A DNA stretch of 64,000 nucleotides from Escherichia coli (GTDB lineage Bacteria > Pseudomonadota > Gammaproteobacteria > Enterobacterales > Enterobacteriaceae): assembly GCF_036507355.1 (NCBI RefSeq), contig NZ_AP027877.1. The stretch is one strand, 5' to 3'. The notes under the pieces were generated by a model. It was not told the origin of the DNA and searched no databases. It worked only from the letters and a program-made list of their open reading frames with translations. Within the stretch, counting starts at the first letter, position 1; each line of letters starts with the position of its first letter. Below are positions 2,842-52,059 of this stretch, piece after piece. Position numbers and translations under genes: made by a program.

Positions 2842-3027
2842 TTAACTTTGTAACGTCATAGAGTCAAAGAAAAAGGCAGCCTGTGGTTGCCTTTTGCCAA
2901 TAATTCGCACACATTGCGGGTTACTGCTTTATTTTCGTTCAGTGCTGATAACGAACATCAACCTGCAAAACGAAGCGCATAGTTTAAAATGGCTATCATC
3001 AATACGCTATATCTGATGGAAAAAAAT

Positions 3028-3612
3028 ATGCCTAAACTTATTTTAGCCTCCACCTCGCCCTGGCGTCGCGCTCTTCTGGAAAAACTGCAAATCTCTTTTG
3101 AATGTGCAGCACCCGAGGTCGACGAAACTCCACACAGCGACGAATCACCGCGACAGTTGGTGCTTCGACTGGCACAAGAAAAAGCGCAATCTCTGGCGTC
3201 ACGTTATCCGGATCATTTAATTATTGGTTCAGACCAGGTATGTGTTCTTGATGGCGAAATCACCGGTAAACCGTTAACGGAAGAAAATGCCCGTCTGCAA
3301 TTACGCAAAGCCAGCGGCAATATCGTCACCTTCTATACTGGACTGGCGTTGTTTAATTCGGCGAATGGGCATCTACAAACAGAAGTGGAGCCTTTTGACG
3401 TCCATTTCCGTCACCTGAGCGAGGCGGAGATTGATAATTACGTGCGTAAAGAGCATCCCCTGCACTGCGCGGGTAGCTTTAAGAGTGAAGGATTTGGCAT
3501 TACTCTGTTTGAGCGTTTAGAGGGGCGTGATCCTAACACGCTGGTTGGTTTACCGCTAATCGCGCTGTGTCAGATGTTACGTCGGGAAGGGAAAAACCCG
3601 CTGATGGGATAG
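3028..3612 (+). CDS. yceF: Maf-like nucleotide pyrophosphatase
   Basis: ORF track 2989..3612; start moved to the internal [20 protein letters not shown], giving 194 aa. Confidence 0.88.
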
Positions 3613-4683: not shown

Positions 4684-5255
4684 GGTTGGCGATTCTAATT
4701 AGCCAACAGGATTCGCGCCACTCATTTTTCTATGCTTATATTTACTTTTGCACCTTATTACTTCACTGCGTGATCACTTTATTGATGGTTATTAAACCAA
4801 TCACCAGCAAGAAGTGAAAAAACTGTGAGTAAGCGGGTGATAAATGGTAAAAGTCATCTTGCTATAACAAGGCTTGCAGTGGAATAATGAGGCCGTTTCC
4901 GTGTCCATCCTTGTTAAAACAAGAAATTTTACGGAATAACCCATTTTGCCCGACCGATCATCCACGCAGCAATGGCGTAAGACGTATTGATCTTTCAGGC
5001 AGTTAGCGGGCTGCGGGTTGCAGTCCTTACCGGTAGATGGAAATATTTCTGGAGAGTAATACCCAGTCTGTTTCTTTGATAATTGCGCTGTTTTTCCGCA
5101 TGAAAAACGGGCAACCGACACTCTGCGCCTCTTTGAGCTGACGATAACCGTGAGGTTGGCGACGCGACTAGACACGAGGCCATCGGTTCACACCCGGAAA
5201 GGCGTTACTTTGCCCGCAGCTTAGTCGTCAATGTAAGAATAATGAGTAAGTTACG
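4684..5255 (+). promoter_or_regulatory. rne promoter region and long 5' leader
   Basis: 570-bp non-coding gap upstream of rne; established knowledge that the rne leader is long, structured and autoregulated; promoter positions not determined here. Confidence 0.55.
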
Positions 5256-26961: not shown

Positions 26962-27011
26962 TATCCTTTGTGTCCGGCAAAAACATCCCTTCAGCCGGAG
27001 CATAGAGATTA

Positions 27012-33960: not shown

Positions 33961-34131
33961 ATCTCCCATGCCGGATGCTTCAGAATGGCATCCGGCATTA
34001 CCACAGCAAATCCCCCTGATTTAGCGATAAAAGCTCTCTGGATTGCGCCCCCTGGAAGTCGGGCGCATAATTAGTGTGCTTATCTTTTCTTCTTATGTTC
34101 ACCGCGCCTGGCGCACCAACAGCGGATTGCT

Positions 34132-35358
34132 ATGTCACCCTGTGAAAATGACACCCCTATAAACTGGAAACGAAACCTGATCGTCGCCTGGCTAGGCTGT
34201 TTTCTTACCGGTGCCGCCTTCAGTCTGGTAATGCCCTTCTTACCCCTCTACGTTGAGCAGCTTGGCGTTACCGGTCACTCCGCCCTGAATATGTGGTCCG
34301 GTATTGTCTTCAGCATTACATTTTTATTTTCGGCCATCGCCTCACCGTTTTGGGGTGGACTCGCCGACCGTAAAGGCCGAAAACTCATGCTATTACGCTC
34401 TGCTCTCGGCATGGGCATCGTGATGGTGTTGATGGGACTGGCACAAAATATCTGGCAGTTTTTGATCCTGCGGGCGCTTCTTGGTTTACTTGGCGGATTT
34501 GTCCCCAATGCTAATGCTCTTATCGCCACACAAGTACCGCGTAATAAAAGCGGCTGGGCGCTGGGTACGCTCTCCACAGGCGGCGTTAGCGGCGCGTTGC
34601 TCGGCCCAATGGCTGGCGGTTTGCTTGCCGATAGCTACGGCTTACGTCCGGTATTCTTTATTACCGCCAGTGTGCTCTTACTCTGCTTTTTCGTCACCCT
34701 GTTCTGCATCAGAGAAAAATTCCAGCCGGTCAGCAAAAAAGAGATGCTGCACATGCGGGAAGTGGTGACATCACTTAAAAACCCGAAACTGGTACTCAGC
34801 CTGTTTGTCACTACGTTAATCATCCAGGTGGCGACGGGCTCAATTGCCCCCATTTTGACGCTGTATGTCCGCGAACTGGCGGGTAACGTCAGTAACGTCG
34901 CCTTTATCAGTGGCATGATCGCCTCGGTGCCAGGCGTGGCGGCTCTGCTAAGTGCACCACGACTCGGCAAACTTGGCGATCGAATCGGACCCGAAAAGAT
35001 CCTGATTACGGCGCTGATCTTTTCTGTACTGCTGTTGATCCCAATGTCTTACGTTCAGACGCCATTGCAACTTGGGATTTTACGTTTTTTGCTCGGTGCC
35101 GCCGATGGTGCACTACTCCCCGCCGTACAGACACTGTTAGTTTATAACTCGAGCAACCAGATCGCCGGGCGTATCTTCAGCTATAACCAATCGTTTCGTG
35201 ATATTGGCAACGTTACCGGACCATTGATGGGAGCAGCGATTTCAGCGAACTACGGTTTCAGAGCGGTATTTCTCGTCACCGCTGGCGTAGTGTTATTCAA
35301 CGCAGTCTATTCATGGAACAGTCTACGTCGTCGTCGAATACCCCAGGTATCGAACTGA
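34132..35358 (+). CDS. mdtG: MFS multidrug transporter
   Basis: ORF track 408 aa. Confidence 0.92.
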
Positions 35359-35440
35359 TTTTTCGCCTTTCATACTTGCAAAAGCGGAGAATCAGCTATC
35401 CTTTTCCCTGAAACCTCATCAACTCAAAGGGAGAATCGTG

Positions 35441-35815
35441 ATGACCATGTACGCAACGCTTGAAGAAGCCATTGACGCTGCACGCGAAGAATTTCTTGCA
35501 GACAACCCCGGCATCGACGCCGAAGATGCGAATGTGCAACAGTTCAATGCCCAAAAATACGTTTTGCAGGACGGCGACATCATGTGGCAAGTTGAGTTTT
35601 TTGCCGACGAAGGGGAAGAAGGTGAATGTTTACCTATGCTTAGCGGTGAAGCCGCGCAAAGTGTTTTTGACGGCGACTATGATGAGATAGAGATCCGCCA
35701 GGAGTGGCAAGAAGAGAATACATTACATGAATGGGACGAGGGGGAGTTTCAGCTTGAGCCACCGCTGGATACCGAGGAAGGACGCGCAGCAGCTGATGAG
35801 TGGGATGAACGTTAA
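35441..35815 (+). CDS. msyB: Acidic protein MsyB
   Basis: ORF track 35438..35815, very acidic 124-aa protein. Confidence 0.9.
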   Translation: MTMYATLEEAIDAAREEFLADNPGIDAEDANVQQFNAQKYVLQDGDIMWQVEFFADEGEEGECLPMLSGEAAQSVFDGDYDEIEIRQEWQEENTLHEWDEGEFQLEPPLDTEEGRAAADEWDER

Positions 35816-36043
35816 TCACTCATACGGGCCATGATGAATGTCGATCGGCAGCAGTAAAGTATCAAAAACCAGGGAGAATGGCAGATCAAGGATTGTGACA
35901 TAACGCCAGGCGGAGTCACGCACATCCCATTGCACACCGGGATAATATTGGTTGCCATGCCCCTGCCCCGGTATAGTGCGGCTAATGATGCTGCCACAGC
36001 CACTCAGCAAGGTCACCATGATGCTCACCACAATTAAACGCAT
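35816..36043 (-). CDS. yceK: Lipoprotein YceK
   Basis: ORF track 75 aa, MRLIVVSIMVTLLSGC lipobox; stop abuts the msyB stop. Confidence 0.88.
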   Translation of the reverse strand: MRLIVVSIMVTLLSGCGSIISRTIPGQGHGNQYYPGVQWDVRDSAWRYVTILDLPFSLVFDTLLLPIDIHHGPYE

Positions 36044-36106
36044 TTGATACCTCTTCCGTAAAAAAATACCGGCATAACGCCGGTATTTTTATTGGCTCGT
36101 TGTTTT

Positions 36107-36215
36107 TGCCAGATGCGACGTGAACACCTTACCTAACCTACAAAATCTCGCAAAATCAATAAATTGCAGGAACGATGTAGGCCTGATAAGCGTAGCGCAT
36201 CAGGCAACTACGTTT

Positions 36216-36236
<21 letters not shown>
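36107..36236. repeat. REP/RIP-like cluster at the opgH 3' end
   Basis: Two REP-like palindromes (tgccagatgcgacgtgaac..., gtaggcctgataagcgtagcgcatcaggca) flanking an IHF-like aaatcaataaattg core. Confidence 0.55.
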
Positions 36237-40398
<4,162 letters not shown>

Positions 40399-40680: not shown

Positions 40681-41838
40681 ATGAATCCAGTACCCGCGCA
40701 ACGTGAATATTTCCTCGACTCCATCCGCGCCTGGCTGATGTTGTTAGGGATCCCTTTTCATATTTCTTTAATCTATTCGAGCCATACATGGCATGTGAAT
40801 AGCGCCGAACCGTCATTGTGGCTGACCCTTTTTAATGACTTCATCCACTCGTTCCGCATGCAGGTATTTTTCGTTATATCCGGGTACTTTTCCTACATGC
40901 TTTTTTTACGCTATCCCTTGAAAAAATGGTGGAAAGTACGTGTCGAACGTGTAGGGATCCCGATGTTAACAGCCATCCCCTTACTGACATTGCCGCAATT
41001 TATTATGCTGCAATACGTCAAAGGGAAAGCGGAAAGTTGGCCTGGGCTGTCATTGTATGACAAATATAATACGTTAGCCTGGGAATTAATATCACACCTG
41101 TGGTTTTTACTGGTGTTAGTGGTCATAACGACGCTGTGCGTATGGATATTTAAACGCATCAGAAATAATTTAGAAAATTCTGATAAAACGAATAAAAAAT
41201 TCTCGATGGTAAAACTATCGGTGATTTTTTTGTGCCTCGGCATCGGTTATGCGGTAATAAGAAGAACGATTTTTATTGTGTATCCGCCCATTCTGAGTAA
41301 TGGCATGTTCAATTTTATTGTCATGCAAACGCTATTTTATTTACCGTTCTTTATCCTCGGCGCACTGGCTTTCATTTTCCCTCATCTTAAAGCCTTGTTT
41401 ACCACGCCGTCTCGTGGCTGTACCCTCGCAGCAGCATTGGCATTTGTCGCTTACTTACTCAACCAGCGCTATGGCAGTGGCGATGCCTGGATGTACGAAA
41501 CCGAGTCTGTGATCACCATGGTCCTCGGTCTGTGGATGGTGAATGTGGTCTTCTCCTTCGGCCACCGTTTGCTTAACTTCCAGTCAGCGCGGGTGACTTA
41601 CTTTGTTAACGCATCGCTATTTATCTATCTGGTTCACCACCCGTTAACGCTGTTTTTCGGCGCATACATTACACCGCACATCACCTCCAACTGGCTTGGT
41701 TTTCTCTGTGGCCTGATATTCGTAGTAGGGATTGCGATAATTCTGTATGAAATTCATTTACGCATCCCGTTACTGAAGTTTTTGTTTTCTGGTAAACCGG
41801 TTGTTAAGCGTGAGAACGATAAAGCACCAGCCCGTTAA
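40681..41838 (+). CDS. opgC: OPG succinyltransferase
   Basis: ORF track 385 aa, polytopic membrane acyltransferase. Confidence 0.92.
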
Positions 41839-41845
41839 GCCACAT

Positions 41846-43276
41846 TTACAATAACCATTCCACGGGCAATATCGACGCCAGTCTGACCATAACCCGCTTC
41901 CAGAAACTGGTGGCGGGTTCTTTTTTGAGAATAATCTCTTTCTTTGCATGACGATCAACCCAGTTGATCCGTCCCCACCGGTCCAGACGGAGCTGCCAGG
42001 CCGCATCATACTGGCTCTGAATAAAGCGTTTATCAATTAACTGTGCCAGCGTTTCGCTCTCTATCACAAAGCCCATTTCAGTATTGAGCAATGTTGAACG
42101 CGGATCGAAATTGAAAGAGCCGATAAACACCGTTTTACCATCGATGCTAAAGGTTTTAGCATGCAGGCTGGTACCGGAATTACCGGTTATGCCGCGATCG
42201 TGTAACGTACTACTTTGTTCACGCGTCGGCTTGAGTTCATATAATTCCACGCCATAGCGGAGCAATTTTTTGCGCCAGCGCGCGTATCCGGCATGGACGA
42301 CAGCAACATCGTTAGCGGCAAGAGAATTGGTTAGGATCGCAATCTTTACCCCTTTTCTCACCATCCGTAAGAGTTGCGCCACACCTGCGCGTGTCGGTAC
42401 AAAATAGGAAGAGATAATATCGATGCGTTCACTGGGTGAGCCCATGATATCGAACAGGCGCTGCGGTAACAGTGAATGCCGTTTTGCCTTGCCCTCCCCT
42501 TTCGCCGGATCATCACTTAATAAACGTGTTTTCGCCCAGATAAGCGGCAACGTTCCATCAACCAGATGATTTATAAACGGACTGGATTCCATTTTGCGTA
42601 AGTAACAATGCGTCATGGCATCGTTATGCCAGGAGGCGGGTAACTCGATGCGATCCGCCATTTCACCTTCCGGGACATCCAGCACCTGCTGTAAGGGTGA
42701 AACCGATTTGCAATACCAGTAGCGGGCGAAATCATCGGCAACGTCCTCTACTACGGGTCCTATTGCCATGACATCTAAATCCGAAAAAAGTGGCTCTTCC
42801 CCTGCCCCAAAATAGGCATCACCAATATTTCGCCCCCCTACCAGCGTCACCACGCCATCGACAGTGAAACTTTTATTGTGCATACGGCGATTGAGACGGG
42901 AAAAGTCGGTGATATAACCAAGCGGACGCAGCAAGCGAAACGAGAAAGGATTAAAAAGCCGGACTTCAATGCGGGGATGGCTGTCAAGCAAGCGTAAAAT
43001 GTCGTCAAGTCCGGGCGTATTGTTGTCGTCCAGCAACAAACGGACGCGAACGCCACGCTTTGCTGCGGCTAACAGGGCGGAAAACAGTAACCGACCCGAC
43101 ATATCGTCCTGCCAGATGTAATACTGAACATCCAGCGTATGCTCTGCCATTTCGGCCAGACGATACCGGGCGGCAAACGCATCCAGACTTTTCTCCAGAG
43201 GGAAAAGACCACACTGACCGGGATGTTGCGAACACAGTGGCAGCACCGCGCTCGCCAGCCGGGGCAAATCATTCAT
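41846..43276 (-). CDS. clsC: Cardiolipin synthase C, two PLD/HKD motifs
   Basis: ORF track 41846..43336; start tentatively at [11 protein letters not shown], overlapping ymdB by 8 nt. Confidence 0.85.
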
Positions 43277-45674: not shown

Positions 45675-46427
45675 GTTGTCACCCTGGACCTGGTCGTACA
45701 TTTAAGAAATTAAATCATTTCAACTTGGTTGTTAACGCAACCTGTATTTTGTTAACGCTGCGTTACGATGGAAAGTATGTCTGCGGAAATATTTTTAATA
45801 ACTCACCCGCGCGTTGTATTTTTCTTTTTTTGTTCATACCAAAGTATTAAAACCCACGTAAATACGCTGTTATCTACGCAAAAAATATTTTGTTTTCTTT
45901 TAAATCTCCGTTTTCCGCTAGCAAAAAACACCAGACAGTCATTCTTCTTGCCCGTCGCTGATTGCTGCGATATGTCTTGCGCACAAGCCGTGACAAACCT
46001 CGTCTTTTTGCAGTAAAAAATTGTCCACGGTGGTGTGGAGAAAAAACAAGAACGTTTTACATGACGAAAGGACTACACCGAAATATTTTTTATATGCATT
46101 ATTAGTAAGTTAGCACCATTTGTATGATTTTTTAAAATTGTGCAATAAAAACCAAATGTACAACTTTTCTATCATTCCTAAACTTAATAAAACCTTAAAG
46201 TTAACATTTTAATATAATGAGTTACATTTAGTTACATGTTTAACACTTGATTTAAGATTTGTAATGGCTAGATTGAAATCAGATGTAATCCATTAGTTTT
46301 ATATTTTACCCATTTAGGGCTGATTTATTACTACACACAGCAGTGCAACATCTGTCAGTACTTCTGGTGCTTCTATTTTAGAGGCAGCTGTCAGGTGTGC
46401 GATCAATAAAAAAAGCGGGGTTTCATC
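45675..46427. promoter_or_regulatory. Divergent csgB / csgD intergenic control region
   Basis: 753-bp non-coding, strongly A+T-rich gap between divergent curli operons; individual binding sites not resolved. Confidence 0.8.
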
Positions 46428-51971: not shown

Positions 51972-52059
51972 GGTGAGGTGTCCGAGTGGCTGAAGGAGCA
52001 CGCCTGGAAAGTGTGTATACGGCAACGTATCGGGGGTTCGAATCCCCCCCTCACCGCCA
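51972..52059 (+). tRNA. serX: tRNA-Ser (anticodon GGA)
   Basis: 88-nt sequence ggtgaggtgtccgagtggctgaaggagcacgcctGGAaagtgtg...ggttcgaatccccccctcaccgcca with long variable arm and T-loop GTTCGAATC, followed by a hairpin plus T-run terminator. Confidence 0.92.

What the first reader, a model, noticed from the sequence alone, without database searches (positions are those of the whole stretch)
35800..35830. msyB and yceK are convergent with abutting stop codons
The msyB stop ends at 35815 and the yceK stop (minus strand) occupies 35816..35818, leaving no intergenic space. Any transcript of either gene must extend into the other as antisense RNA, allowing mutual interference.
Basis: seen in the sequence. 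Interest (0 to 1): 0.2.

Follow-up and report, generated by a model that had tools for sequence, protein, structure and literature searches.

The report
Back-to-back msyB and yceK genes
Two E. coli genes that face each other end with touching stop codons, so their transcripts overlap (mostly msyB RNA running backwards across all of yceK); this is real and conserved but already annotated, already catalogued, and a common layout.

Summary
msyB (+, stop TAA 35813-35815) and yceK (-, stop TGA at 35816-18) abut with 0 nt between them, exactly as in the RefSeq K-12 annotation.

The layout is ancient. In 84 loci that carry both genes the gap is 0 nt in 45 and at most 10 nt in 82, and the genes never overlap.

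The junction has no terminator:
- **msyB strand:** RNA runs antisense through all of yceK and stops at a conserved two-way hairpin terminator (36060-36093) shared with opgH. A published 3' end maps at 36092. Published stranded RNA-seq shows about 50 times more antisense than sense RNA over yceK, and it tracks msyB.
- **yceK strand:** RNA runs into a C-rich, G-poor antisense stretch of msyB and meets a published Rho termination region (about 35574).

The pair is listed among 165 convergent "excludons" of E. coli (NAR 2025). Touching or overlapping convergent genes are common: 5 of 26 sampled K-12 pairs.

Overlap of transcripts is therefore supported. Interference is untested, would be one-sided rather than mutual, and the available data show no reciprocal expression. 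The finding is ordinary and already known; interest is low.

The parts
35376..35402 (+). Putative msyB promoter, sigma-S type (inferred): -35 TTGCAA 35376-35381, 15-nt spacer, -10 TATCCT 35397-35402 preceded by C at -13. Predicted transcription start about 35409-35411.
   Evidence: The block CTTGCAA..GCTATTCTTTCCCTGAA is largely conserved upstream of msyB in most of the 22 aligned loci. msyB is RpoS-dependent, 40-fold in EDL933 (PMC2907692). RPM is about 150 times higher over msyB than over mdtG. The consensus scan did not call it because it scores 8 of 12 against a threshold of 9. No start site was mapped here.
35441..35815 (+). msyB CDS (acidic protein MsyB, 124 aa from ATG 35441; an in-frame GTG lies at 35438); stop TAA 35813-35815.
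35813..35818 (.). Stop-to-stop junction TAA|TCA with a 0-nt spacer. The commonest form in relatives is TAA|TTA.
35816..36043 (-). yceK CDS: 75-aa DUF1375 lipoprotein with lipobox LSGC; stop TGA at 35816-35818 on the - strand.
   Evidence: Genetic link to outer-membrane integrity and lptD in PMC3219608.
35816..36092 (+). Inferred msyB 3' UTR, about 277 nt, fully complementary to the yceK CDS and its ribosome-binding site.
   Evidence: The published 3' terminus on the MG1655 minus strand at 1113527-1113535 (peak 1113530) converts to window 36092 (PMC10687069 Supp Data 2). Antisense-yceK RNA is 150.6, 74.5 and 14.3 RPM in three strains. Per nt that is 0.69, 0.82 and 0.77 of msyB sense, and it falls about 470-fold over mdoH antisense (PMC7373196 Table S1c; ratios are my arithmetic).
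36060..36093 (.). Two-way intrinsic terminator AAAAAAA-TACCGGC-ATAAC-GCCGGTA-TTTTTATT. It ends opgGH transcripts on the - strand and msyB-strand transcripts on the + strand. It lies 21 nt upstream of the yceK ATG.
   Evidence: Folds at about -20 kcal/mol on both strands, z -3.2 and -3.5. 3' ends are mapped on both strands. A hairpin is present in 84 of 84 loci, with different stem sequences in distant taxa. The T-rich tail has 7-9 T of 10 on the opgH side in all loci, and 6 or more of 10 on the msyB side in 64 of 84.
35574..35815 (-). Rho-dependent termination zone for yceK-strand transcripts: untranslated, C-rich and G-poor RNA antisense to the acidic C-terminal half of msyB.
   Evidence: C/G is 1.6-2.3 over the first 250 nt after the yceK stop. 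The whole 375-nt antisense-msyB RNA (C/G 1.5) is at the 99th percentile of 375-nt windows in this 64-kb window. The Rho termination region at MG1655 1114048 (+) converts to window 35574, with Rho score 5.3 and p 4e-7 (PMC7815308 supp. file 2).
36177..36211 (.). REP-type palindrome directly after the opgH stop. The flanking Rfam ES036/CssrF match (36142-36184, +) is context only, not part of the junction.
36216..38789 (-). opgH (mdoH) CDS, the upstream neighbour on the yceK strand, whose terminator is the shared hairpin.
34132..35358 (+). mdtG CDS, the upstream neighbour on the msyB strand. It is absent between lpxL and msyB in some relatives.

Best explanation
This is a compact, ancient convergent gene junction with no terminator of its own. 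Each gene borrows termination from inside or beyond its neighbour.

**msyB strand.** Transcripts probably start at a sigma-S-type promoter in the mdtG-msyB spacer (inferred). They read through the whole of yceK in antisense. They stop at the two-way hairpin terminator between yceK and opgH (shown by published 3'-end and stranded RNA-seq data). The predicted mRNA is about 680 nt, with a roughly 277-nt 3' UTR that is the exact complement of yceK.

**yceK strand.** Transcripts are far rarer. They come from read-through of the opgGH terminator or from an unmapped weak promoter (unresolved). After the yceK stop they enter untranslated, C-rich, G-poor RNA antisense to the acidic half of msyB. Rho ends them about 240 nt in (shown by published bicyclomycin data; the composition was computed here).

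**Consequence.** Both strands are transcribed over at least 35574-36043. The overlap is strongly one-sided, with msyB RNA over yceK. My reading is that this is mainly a tolerated by-product of gene packing around one shared terminator. At most it damps yceK when msyB is induced. It is not a tuned mutual switch.
For: **Anatomy and conservation**
- Zero spacer and no hairpin or T-run at the junction.
- The conserved hairpin is the only intrinsic terminator found in the zone.
- Gaps of 0-10 nt in 82 of 84 loci, with the same msyB> <yceK T <opgH order down to 45% MsyB identity.

**msyB-strand read-through**
- 3' end at window 36092 on the + strand and 36062/36057 on the - strand (PMC10687069).
- yceK antisense is 150.6 RPM against 3.1 RPM sense.
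- Its density is a near-constant 0.7-0.8 of msyB sense across three strains in which msyB varies 12-fold. It collapses about 470-fold beyond the hairpin (PMC7373196 Table S1c).

**yceK-strand termination**
- Rho region at window 35574 (PMC7815308).
- It coincides with the end of a 99th-percentile C>G stretch.

**Overlap already catalogued, and duplex RNA detected**
- ExcludonFinder lists the pair.
- p19-captured duplex RNA per nt at yceK and msyB is about 2-10 times that of the neighbouring genes in the stationary-phase sample.

**By-product reading**
- 5 of 26 sampled K-12 convergent pairs touch or overlap.
- 4-fold-degenerate sites in yceK (0.47) and msyB (0.50) are no more conserved than in mdtG (0.48) or opgH (0.61).
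- yceK sense RNA does not rise in rnc mutants or when msyB is low.
Against: - No transcript was mapped end to end here. That the antisense-yceK RNA is the msyB 3' UTR rests on co-variation and on a 3' end, not on a Northern blot or a long read.
- The + strand 3' end was significant in 2 of 3 replicates of one re-analysed data set. I did not find it in the curated Term-seq list of PMC7815308.
- SMRT-Cappable-seq supplements mention neither gene.
- The msyB promoter is inferred from conservation only.
- A gap of 10 nt or less has persisted for as long as MsyB homology is detectable. The paralogue yidQ has the same tight convergent layout. Both facts could point to selection for the overlap rather than mere tolerance.
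- The rnc comparison is confounded by strain and growth differences.
- In Salmonella a yceK::lacZ fusion is reported to follow the bile induction seen on arrays. So yceK sense transcription can be induced under sigma-S-type stress despite the antisense RNA.
Confidence: 0.7

Rival explanations
1. It is a working excludon. The long msyB 3' UTR is a dedicated cis-antisense repressor of yceK, acting by polymerase collision and/or RNase III cleavage of the duplex. Sigma-S induction of msyB would then switch off the envelope lipoprotein, and the tight junction is kept by selection for this.
For: - Listed as a convergent excludon.
- 50-fold antisense excess over yceK.
- p19-captured duplex RNA at both genes above the neighbours.
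- Conservation of the layout and of the msyB-side T-tail of the hairpin in most loci.
- msyB is RpoS-dependent.
- The paralogue yidQ is also in a 1-nt convergent pair listed as an excludon.
Against: - No reciprocal expression is seen: 'yceK' and msyB change together.
- yceK sense stays at 2-3 RPM while msyB varies 12-fold, and it does not rise in rnc-14 or rnc-38.
- Salmonella yceK::lacZ is induced together with the RpoS regulon.
- The msyB-side U-tract is weak (3-5 T of 10) in 20 of 84 loci.
- There is no extra synonymous constraint, although antisense pairing needs none.
Confidence: 0.2
2. The RNA antisense to yceK is an independent antisense transcript with its own promoter near or after the msyB stop. 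msyB mRNA itself ends close to its stop by Rho or by processing.
For: - The 3' end at the hairpin was annotated only as 'IGR', not assigned to msyB.
- No full-length transcript evidence was available.
- Antisense-yceK density is 0.7-0.8 of msyB rather than 1.0.
Against: - The density ratio is nearly constant while absolute levels change 12-fold across three strains.
- No promoter-like site was found anywhere in 34000-36400.
- The first 100 nt after the msyB stop is G-rich rather than C-rich (C/G 0.6-0.75), which is a poor Rho loading site.
- ExcludonFinder calls the overlap from coverage continuous with the gene.
Confidence: 0.08
3. It is an annotation artefact: one stop or one ORF is wrong, and the true genes are separated.
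For: yceK is small (75 aa), poorly expressed in sense (2-3 RPM), and has only a modest Pfam score.
Against: - Both ORFs, and the positions of both stops, are conserved in 84 loci with substitutions that look synonymous.
- YceK keeps its lipobox and the invariant motif GCGSIISR..GQGHGN.YYPGVQWD.
- MsyB matches its family end to end.
- yceK mutants have phenotypes.
Confidence: 0.02

Closest known systems
Convergent 'excludons' of E. coli MG1655 (ExcludonFinder, NAR 2025, PMC12288877; the concept comes from Listeria)
   Same: Adjacent genes on opposite strands whose transcripts overlap at their 3' ends. yceK-msyB is itself one of the 165 listed pairs. Excludon pairs have short spacers.
   Different: The defining outcome, mutually exclusive expression through interference or RNase III, is not shown for this pair. 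The data I found point to co-variation and a one-sided overlap. The spacer is 0 nt against a mean of 95 nt for the class.
Two-way (bidirectional) intrinsic terminators between convergent transcription units (SEnd-seq work of Ju et al. 2019, recalled from my own knowledge; paper not held)
   Same: One GC-rich hairpin flanked by an A-tract and a T-tract ends transcripts arriving from both sides. 3' ends are mapped on both strands here.
   Different: The hairpin does not sit between the two convergent genes of the finding. It lies on the far side of yceK, so one whole gene lies inside the convergent zone. The yceK-strand partner that the hairpin ends is opgGH, not yceK.
Other touching or overlapping convergent CDS pairs in K-12: cueR-ybbJ (0 nt), yidQ-yidR (1 nt), clsC-opgC (7 nt), yedP-dgcQ (-4), cbrA-dgoT (-4), yqfG-yqfH (-4), yedA-vsr (-12)
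   Same: The same geometry. All except yqfG-yqfH appear in the same published overlap list. yidQ is the DUF1375 paralogue of yceK.
   Different: None in kind. This pair is simply one of them, documented here in more detail and shown to be conserved across the family.
Rho-dependent suppression of antisense and read-through transcription (Peters et al. 2012, from my own knowledge; Adams et al. 2021, PMC7815308)
   Same: Untranslated C-rich, G-poor RNA downstream of a stop, with bicyclomycin-sensitive read-through, classed as 'antisense'.
   Different: Here the Rho loading region seems to come from the codon make-up of an acidic protein gene read backwards (an inference). It serves as the only terminator of a conserved protein-coding gene.

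Membership tests
Convergent excludon | Neighbouring genes on opposite strands, tail to tail | tested here: met
Convergent excludon | Transcripts of the two units overlap (a long 3' UTR reaches into or across the neighbour) | tested here: met
   Taken from published data read here, not from new experiments: ExcludonFinder list; stranded RNA-seq with yceK at 3.1 sense and 150.6 antisense RPM; 3' end at 36092; Rho region at 35574.
Convergent excludon | Reciprocal (mutually exclusive) expression of the two genes | tested here: inconclusive
   Co-variation in two expression lists. This may reflect counting that ignores strand. yceK sense RNA is flat while msyB varies 12-fold across three strains. 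Salmonella yceK::lacZ is induced under RpoS-type stress. No single-condition series was available.
Convergent excludon | Duplex RNA formation, RNase III processing or transcriptional interference with an effect on output | tested here: inconclusive
   p19-captured duplex RNA: yceK 8-115 RPM and msyB 21-90 RPM, above the neighbours per nt. There is no rise of yceK sense RNA in rnc-14 or rnc-38. MsyB protein changes 1.2-fold in rnc-14. An effect on YceK protein cannot be tested with these tools.
Two-way intrinsic terminator | GC-rich stem-loop flanked by an A-tract on the 5' side and a T-tract on the 3' side, stable on both strands | tested here: met
   -20.1 and -19.9 kcal/mol, z -3.2 and -3.5. 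Present in 84 of 84 loci. Stem sequences differ between distant taxa while pairing is kept.
Two-way intrinsic terminator | RNA 3' ends in the U-tract on both strands in vivo | tested here: met
   MG1655 minus strand 1113530 and plus strand 1113560/1113565 convert to window 36092 (+) and 36062/36057 (-) (PMC10687069). The + strand end was significant in 2 of 3 replicates.
Rho-dependent terminator | Untranslated C-rich, G-poor stretch of about 80 nt or more upstream of the end point | tested here: met
   C/G is 1.6-2.3 over 250 nt after the yceK stop; the full 375-nt antisense-msyB RNA (C/G 1.5) is at the 99th percentile of the window.
Rho-dependent terminator | Read-through increases when Rho is inhibited | tested here: met
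   Published DirectRNA-seq with and without bicyclomycin: Rho score 5.34, p 4e-7 at MG1655 1114048 (+) (PMC7815308).
Overlapping genes (tail-to-tail CDS overlap) | Coding sequences share at least one base | tested here: not met
   The gap is exactly 0 nt and is never negative in 84 loci.

The most novel reading that the evidence does not exclude
yceK is deliberately housed inside the 3' UTR of the sigma-S-dependent msyB mRNA. This nesting would have been kept since the origin of MsyB. General-stress induction of msyB would then directly throttle an outer-membrane-integrity lipoprotein that otherwise rides on read-through from the low-osmolarity opgGH operon. The shared two-way hairpin would act as the insulator that protects opgH. 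This would be a conserved three-unit antisense circuit linking osmotic or stationary-phase signalling to the envelope, and it might be mirrored at the paralogous yidQ-yidR pair.
Probability: 0.15. Interest if true: 0.4.

Novelty: already known. Interest (0 to 1): 0.15.

Why it matters
Its main value is practical.

- **Risk of misreading yceK expression.** About 98% of the RNA over yceK in the published stranded data set is antisense read-through from msyB. Any quantification that ignores strand would then report msyB's behaviour under the name yceK. The near-identical fold changes in two studies would fit this: 4.09/8.00 against 4.45/8.10, and both genes among only seven shared hits. This is an inference. 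Annotators and users of yceK expression or knock-out data should keep it in mind.
- **A textbook example of outsourced termination.** A gene pair with no spacer borrows an intrinsic two-way terminator on one side and Rho on the other.
- **If the antisense coverage proved regulatory,** it would add one more cis-antisense link between the general stress response and the cell envelope. That would be an incremental result.

Tried and rejected
- **Inverted repeat at the junction.** A 7-bp repeat ATGAGTG(N14)CACTCAT brackets the two stops in the window and could have been a junction hairpin. It arises from the codons D-E-W and Y-E-stop, varies freely at third positions in relatives without compensating changes, and has no U-tract. 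Rejected as chance.
- **Consensus scans.** No promoter-like site was found in 34000-36400, and the terminator scan listed only a partial overlapping stem at 36079-36096 rather than the main hairpin. Folding was needed.
- **Rfam.** Nothing at the junction. The ES036/CssrF hit at 36142-36184 lies next to the REP palindrome and looks REP-associated, so it is unrelated.
- **Curated Term-seq list of Adams et al.** No 3' end within MG1655 1113500-1114099; only the Rho region.
- **Supplements with no usable content.** SMRT-Cappable-seq supplements mention neither gene. For Dar & Sorek and for ExcludonFinder no supplements are held. The Ju et al. 2019 and Thomason et al. 2015 papers are not held.
- **Extra synonymous-site conservation in yceK or msyB as a sign of RNA-level function.** None found (only 10 loci were shared by all four genes).
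- **A conserved yceK promoter.** None found between opgH and the hairpin. Only some genera (Cedecea, Franconibacter-like, Siccibacter) have a TATACT or TATAAT box between the hairpin and the start codon. The source of yceK sense transcripts in E. coli stays unresolved.
- **The search for homologous proteins.** It listed only homologues of 81% identity or more, so it did not extend the range. The representative search did.

Full report
**Observation**

The window is E. coli chromosome: 99.6% identical to many strains, with the gene order mdtG, msyB, yceK, mdoH/opgH. At 35800-35819 the + strand reads gtgggatgaa cgTTAATCAc.

- TAA at 35813-35815 ends the msyB ORF (35441..35815; an in-frame GTG lies at 35438).
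- TCA at 35816-35818 is the reverse complement of TGA and ends the yceK ORF (36043..35816).
- RefSeq MG1655 is annotated the same way: yceK 1113579..1113806 (+) and msyB 1113807..1114181 (-).
- The conversion is window = 1149622 minus the MG1655 coordinate. The junction is identical to K-12. The 8 differences across both genes change no amino acid.
- Pfam confirms MsyB (PF13984, 5e-68) and DUF1375 (PF07119, 7e-8).

**How unusual is it?**

As a layout it is not unusual.

- In four 50-kb samples of the K-12 annotation the 26 convergent CDS pairs have these gaps:
  - 49, 40, 63, 7, 0 (this pair), 41, 39
  - 33, 43, -4, -12, 107
  - 39, 220, 35, -4, 43, 39, 195, 56
  - 132, 36, 315, 0 (cueR-ybbJ), 62, 227
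- So 5 of 26 pairs touch or overlap.
- Elsewhere yidQ-yidR has a 1-nt gap and cbrA-dgoT overlaps by 4 nt. yidQ is the DUF1375 paralogue of yceK.

**Conservation**

- A scan of one genome per species with MsyB gave 80 loci from many Enterobacteriaceae genera.
- Counting the window, the gap between the stops is 0 nt in 45 of 79 loci. The rest are 1 (5 loci), 3 (9), 4 (1), 6 (9), 7 (7), 10 (1), 27 (1) and 28 (1). None overlap.
- Two further loci have lost yceK through rearrangement.
- The junction consensus is GAY GAR TGG GAY GAR CGN TAA|TTA CTC RTA NGG NCC RTG. Variation sits at third positions on both sides, so both C-termini appear to be under protein-level constraint and both stop positions are real.
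- A representative-cluster search reached MsyB homologues of 68%, 53% and 45% identity. Their contigs, plus Buttiauxella and Cronobacter, show the same order msyB> <DUF1375 <opgH, with gaps of 2, 1, 7, 3 and 3 nt.
- The tight junction is therefore as old as detectable MsyB.

**Where transcripts end**

Nothing at the junction looks like a terminator. A 7-bp inverted repeat around the stops is a coding coincidence without covariation.

The only strong hairpin in the zone is AAAAAAA-TACCGGC-ATAAC-GCCGGTA-TTTTTATT at 36060-36093. It lies between yceK and opgH, 21 nt upstream of the yceK ATG, and is stable on both strands (about -20 kcal/mol, z about -3.2 to -3.5).

- Every one of 84 loci has such a hairpin within 130 nt of the yceK start.
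- Stem sequences differ in distant taxa (TGCCGAC/GTCGGCA, AGCCGGCC/GGCCGGCT, CAGGCACCGAAG/CTTCGGTGCCTG) while pairing is kept.
- The tail has 7-9 T of 10 on the opgH side in all loci, and 6 or more T of 10 on the msyB side in 64 of 84.

**Published 3'-end data**

- In the TRS re-analysis of E. coli K-12 data sets (PMC10687069, Supplementary Data 2) a 3' terminus is listed on the MG1655 minus strand at 1113527-1113535 (peak 1113530, annotated 'yceK.opgH IGR'). This is window 36092 on the msyB strand, in the U-tract after the hairpin.
- The 'primary opgH' terminus on the plus strand at 1113560/1113565 is window 36062/36057.
- In Adams et al. 2021 (PMC7815308, supplementary file 2) a bicyclomycin-sensitive Rho termination region is listed at 1114048 (+), 'antisense msyB', with Rho score 5.34 and p 4e-7. 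This is window 35574 on the yceK strand, 242 nt past the yceK stop.
- I computed that the RNA made there is C-rich and G-poor. C/G is 1.6-2.3 over the first 250 nt, and the whole 375-nt stretch (C/G 1.5) is at the 99th percentile of 375-nt windows in this 64-kb window. It reverts to G-rich just where the Rho region maps.
- This composition plausibly follows from reading the GAR/GAY-rich acidic half of msyB backwards (an inference).
- By contrast, the first 100 nt after the msyB stop on the + strand is G-rich (C/G 0.6-0.75), a poor Rho substrate.

**Published stranded RNA levels**

Huang et al. 2020 (PMC7373196), Table S1c, gives sense and antisense RPM for wild type, rnc-14 and rnc-38.

| Gene | WT sense/antisense | rnc-14 sense/antisense | rnc-38 sense/antisense |
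|---|---|---|---|
| yceK | 3.1 / 150.6 | 1.4 / 74.5 | 2.2 / 14.3 |
| msyB | 359.7 / 2.9 | 148.5 / 1.2 | 30.5 / 1.0 |
| mdoH | 132.1 / 3.6 | 124.6 / 2.1 | 65.7 / 5.6 |

From these numbers (my arithmetic):

- The antisense-yceK density per nt is 0.69, 0.82 and 0.77 of msyB sense in the three strains, although msyB varies 12-fold.
- That density drops about 470-fold over mdoH antisense.
- yceK sense density is 26% of mdoH sense.
- msyB antisense density is 56% of yceK sense.

This is what is expected if msyB transcripts continue across yceK to the hairpin, and if rare yceK-strand transcripts continue into msyB and decay there.

Table S1b of the same paper reports p19-captured duplex RNA. yceK gives 8-115 RPM and msyB 21-90 RPM. 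Per nt this is about 2-10 times the neighbouring genes in the stationary-phase sample. ExcludonFinder (PMC12288877) lists yceK-msyB among 165 convergent overlapping pairs found in at least half of 58 transcriptomes.

**Promoters**

- Upstream of msyB a block CTTGCAA..GCTATTCTTTCCCTGAA is largely conserved in most of the 22 aligned loci. In the window it reads TTGCAA (35376-81), N15, TATCCT (35397-402), with C at -13. This is the sigma-S hallmark (established knowledge).
- It fits msyB's 40-fold RpoS dependence (PMC2907692) and its roughly 150-fold higher RPM than mdtG.
- The predicted mRNA is about 680 nt with a 277-nt 3' UTR. This step is inferred.
- For yceK no conserved promoter was found; only the hairpin is conserved. 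Its sense transcripts may be opgGH read-through or come from an unmapped weak promoter.

**Does the overlap regulate anything?**

- The evidence I could find does not show reciprocity.
- yceK sense RNA stays at 1.4-3.1 RPM while msyB changes 12-fold, and it does not rise in either rnc mutant. This comparison is confounded by strain differences.
- 'yceK' and msyB change together with almost the same fold changes after LolCDE inhibition: 4.09/8.00 against 4.45/8.10 (PMC5105897).
- Both are among only seven genes changed by two PFAS compounds (PMC12595759).
- Given the 50-fold antisense excess, this could be what strand-blind counting of the msyB 3' UTR would give (an inference).
- In Salmonella, however, a yceK::lacZ fusion is reported to agree with bile induction (PMC3261920).
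- Four-fold-degenerate sites are no more conserved in yceK (0.47) or msyB (0.50) than in mdtG (0.48) or opgH (0.61).

**Verdict**

The abutment is real, ancient and correctly annotated.

The second half, mutual interference, is untested, and the data suggest a one-sided overlap with no visible reciprocal effect.

The most likely account is a compact junction that outsources termination, to a shared two-way hairpin on one side and to Rho on the other. Antisense coverage of yceK is then a tolerated or mildly damping by-product.

The finding is already known and is one of many of its kind, so interest is low. Its main use is as a warning about interpreting yceK expression data.

Noticed in passing
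L082 (NC_000913.3 3866000-3871000): yidQ 3867728..3868060 (+), yidR 3868062..3869309 (-): The only E. coli paralogue of yceK (yidQ, DUF1375 lipoprotein) also sits in a tail-to-tail pair with a 1-nt gap. That pair is also in the published excludon list. In the same 5 kb, cbrA and dgoT overlap by 4 nt.
   Followed up: partly
window 36142-36184 (+) and 36177-36211: An Rfam ES036 (CssrF) match just above its gathering score (40.1 against 37.6 bits) lies next to a REP-type palindrome directly after the opgH stop. It looks like a REP-associated sequence rather than a locus-specific small RNA. Weak naRNA4 (CssrE) matches overlap it.
   Followed up: partly
window 35376-35402 (+): A sigma-S-type promoter-like block (TTGCAA N15 TATCCT with -13 C) is largely conserved upstream of msyB in most of 22 aligned loci. 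The consensus promoter scan missed it.
   Followed up: partly
window 36044-36064 (-); L041, L048, L060: The yceK start codon lies only 16-35 nt downstream of the opgH terminator in most genera, which leaves no room for a normal promoter. In Cedecea, a Franconibacter-like genome and Siccibacter the spacer is about 60 nt and holds a TATACT or TATAAT box. How yceK is transcribed in E. coli is unresolved.
   Followed up: partly
Published expression lists (PMC5105897, PMC12595759), concerning window 35816-36043: 'yceK' and msyB show almost identical fold changes in independent RNA-seq studies. With about 98% of the RNA over yceK being antisense, these yceK calls may be msyB 3' UTR signal counted without regard to strand.
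   Followed up: no
PMC7373196 Table S1c rows b1047, b1053, b1054: The strand column of that published table gives '+' for mdoC, mdtG and lpxL, which are minus-strand genes (Table S1b of the same file has them right). Sense and antisense values for those rows may be swapped. The yceK and msyB rows carry the correct strands.
   Followed up: no
L044 3376-4200; L057 3376-4200: In Enterobacter asburiae INSAq146 and Enterobacteriaceae bacterium RIT714, yceK is missing or truncated just after the msyB stop and unrelated sequence follows. In L044 a possible remnant of the yceK 3' end may remain; this was judged from the ORF translation only.
   Followed up: partly
L088, L089, L090: In Cronobacter and two more distant MsyB-bearing contigs, mdtG is absent and lpxL directly precedes msyB. 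The msyB-yceK-opgH block is unchanged, so msyB does not depend on mdtG for transcription there.
   Followed up: no
L086 (NC_000913.3): cueR 513993..514400 (+), ybbJ 514401..514859 (-): A second exact 0-nt stop-to-stop abutment in K-12, also in the published excludon list.
   Followed up: no
window 4895-5231 (+), 2866-3034 (-), 46281-46372 (+), 26962-27011 (+), 51972-52056 (+): Other Rfam matches in the window at gathering score: rne 5' UTR element, SraB, ES056, pyrC leader and a tRNA (serX by position). All are expected for this E. coli region.
   Followed up: no
clsC-opgC junction, MG1655 1107776/1107784 (window about 41838-41846 by conversion): Another tight convergent pair (7-nt gap) lies inside the same window. 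It is also in the published excludon list and has a 'primary opgC' 3' end mapped inside clsC at MG1655 1107697.
   Followed up: no
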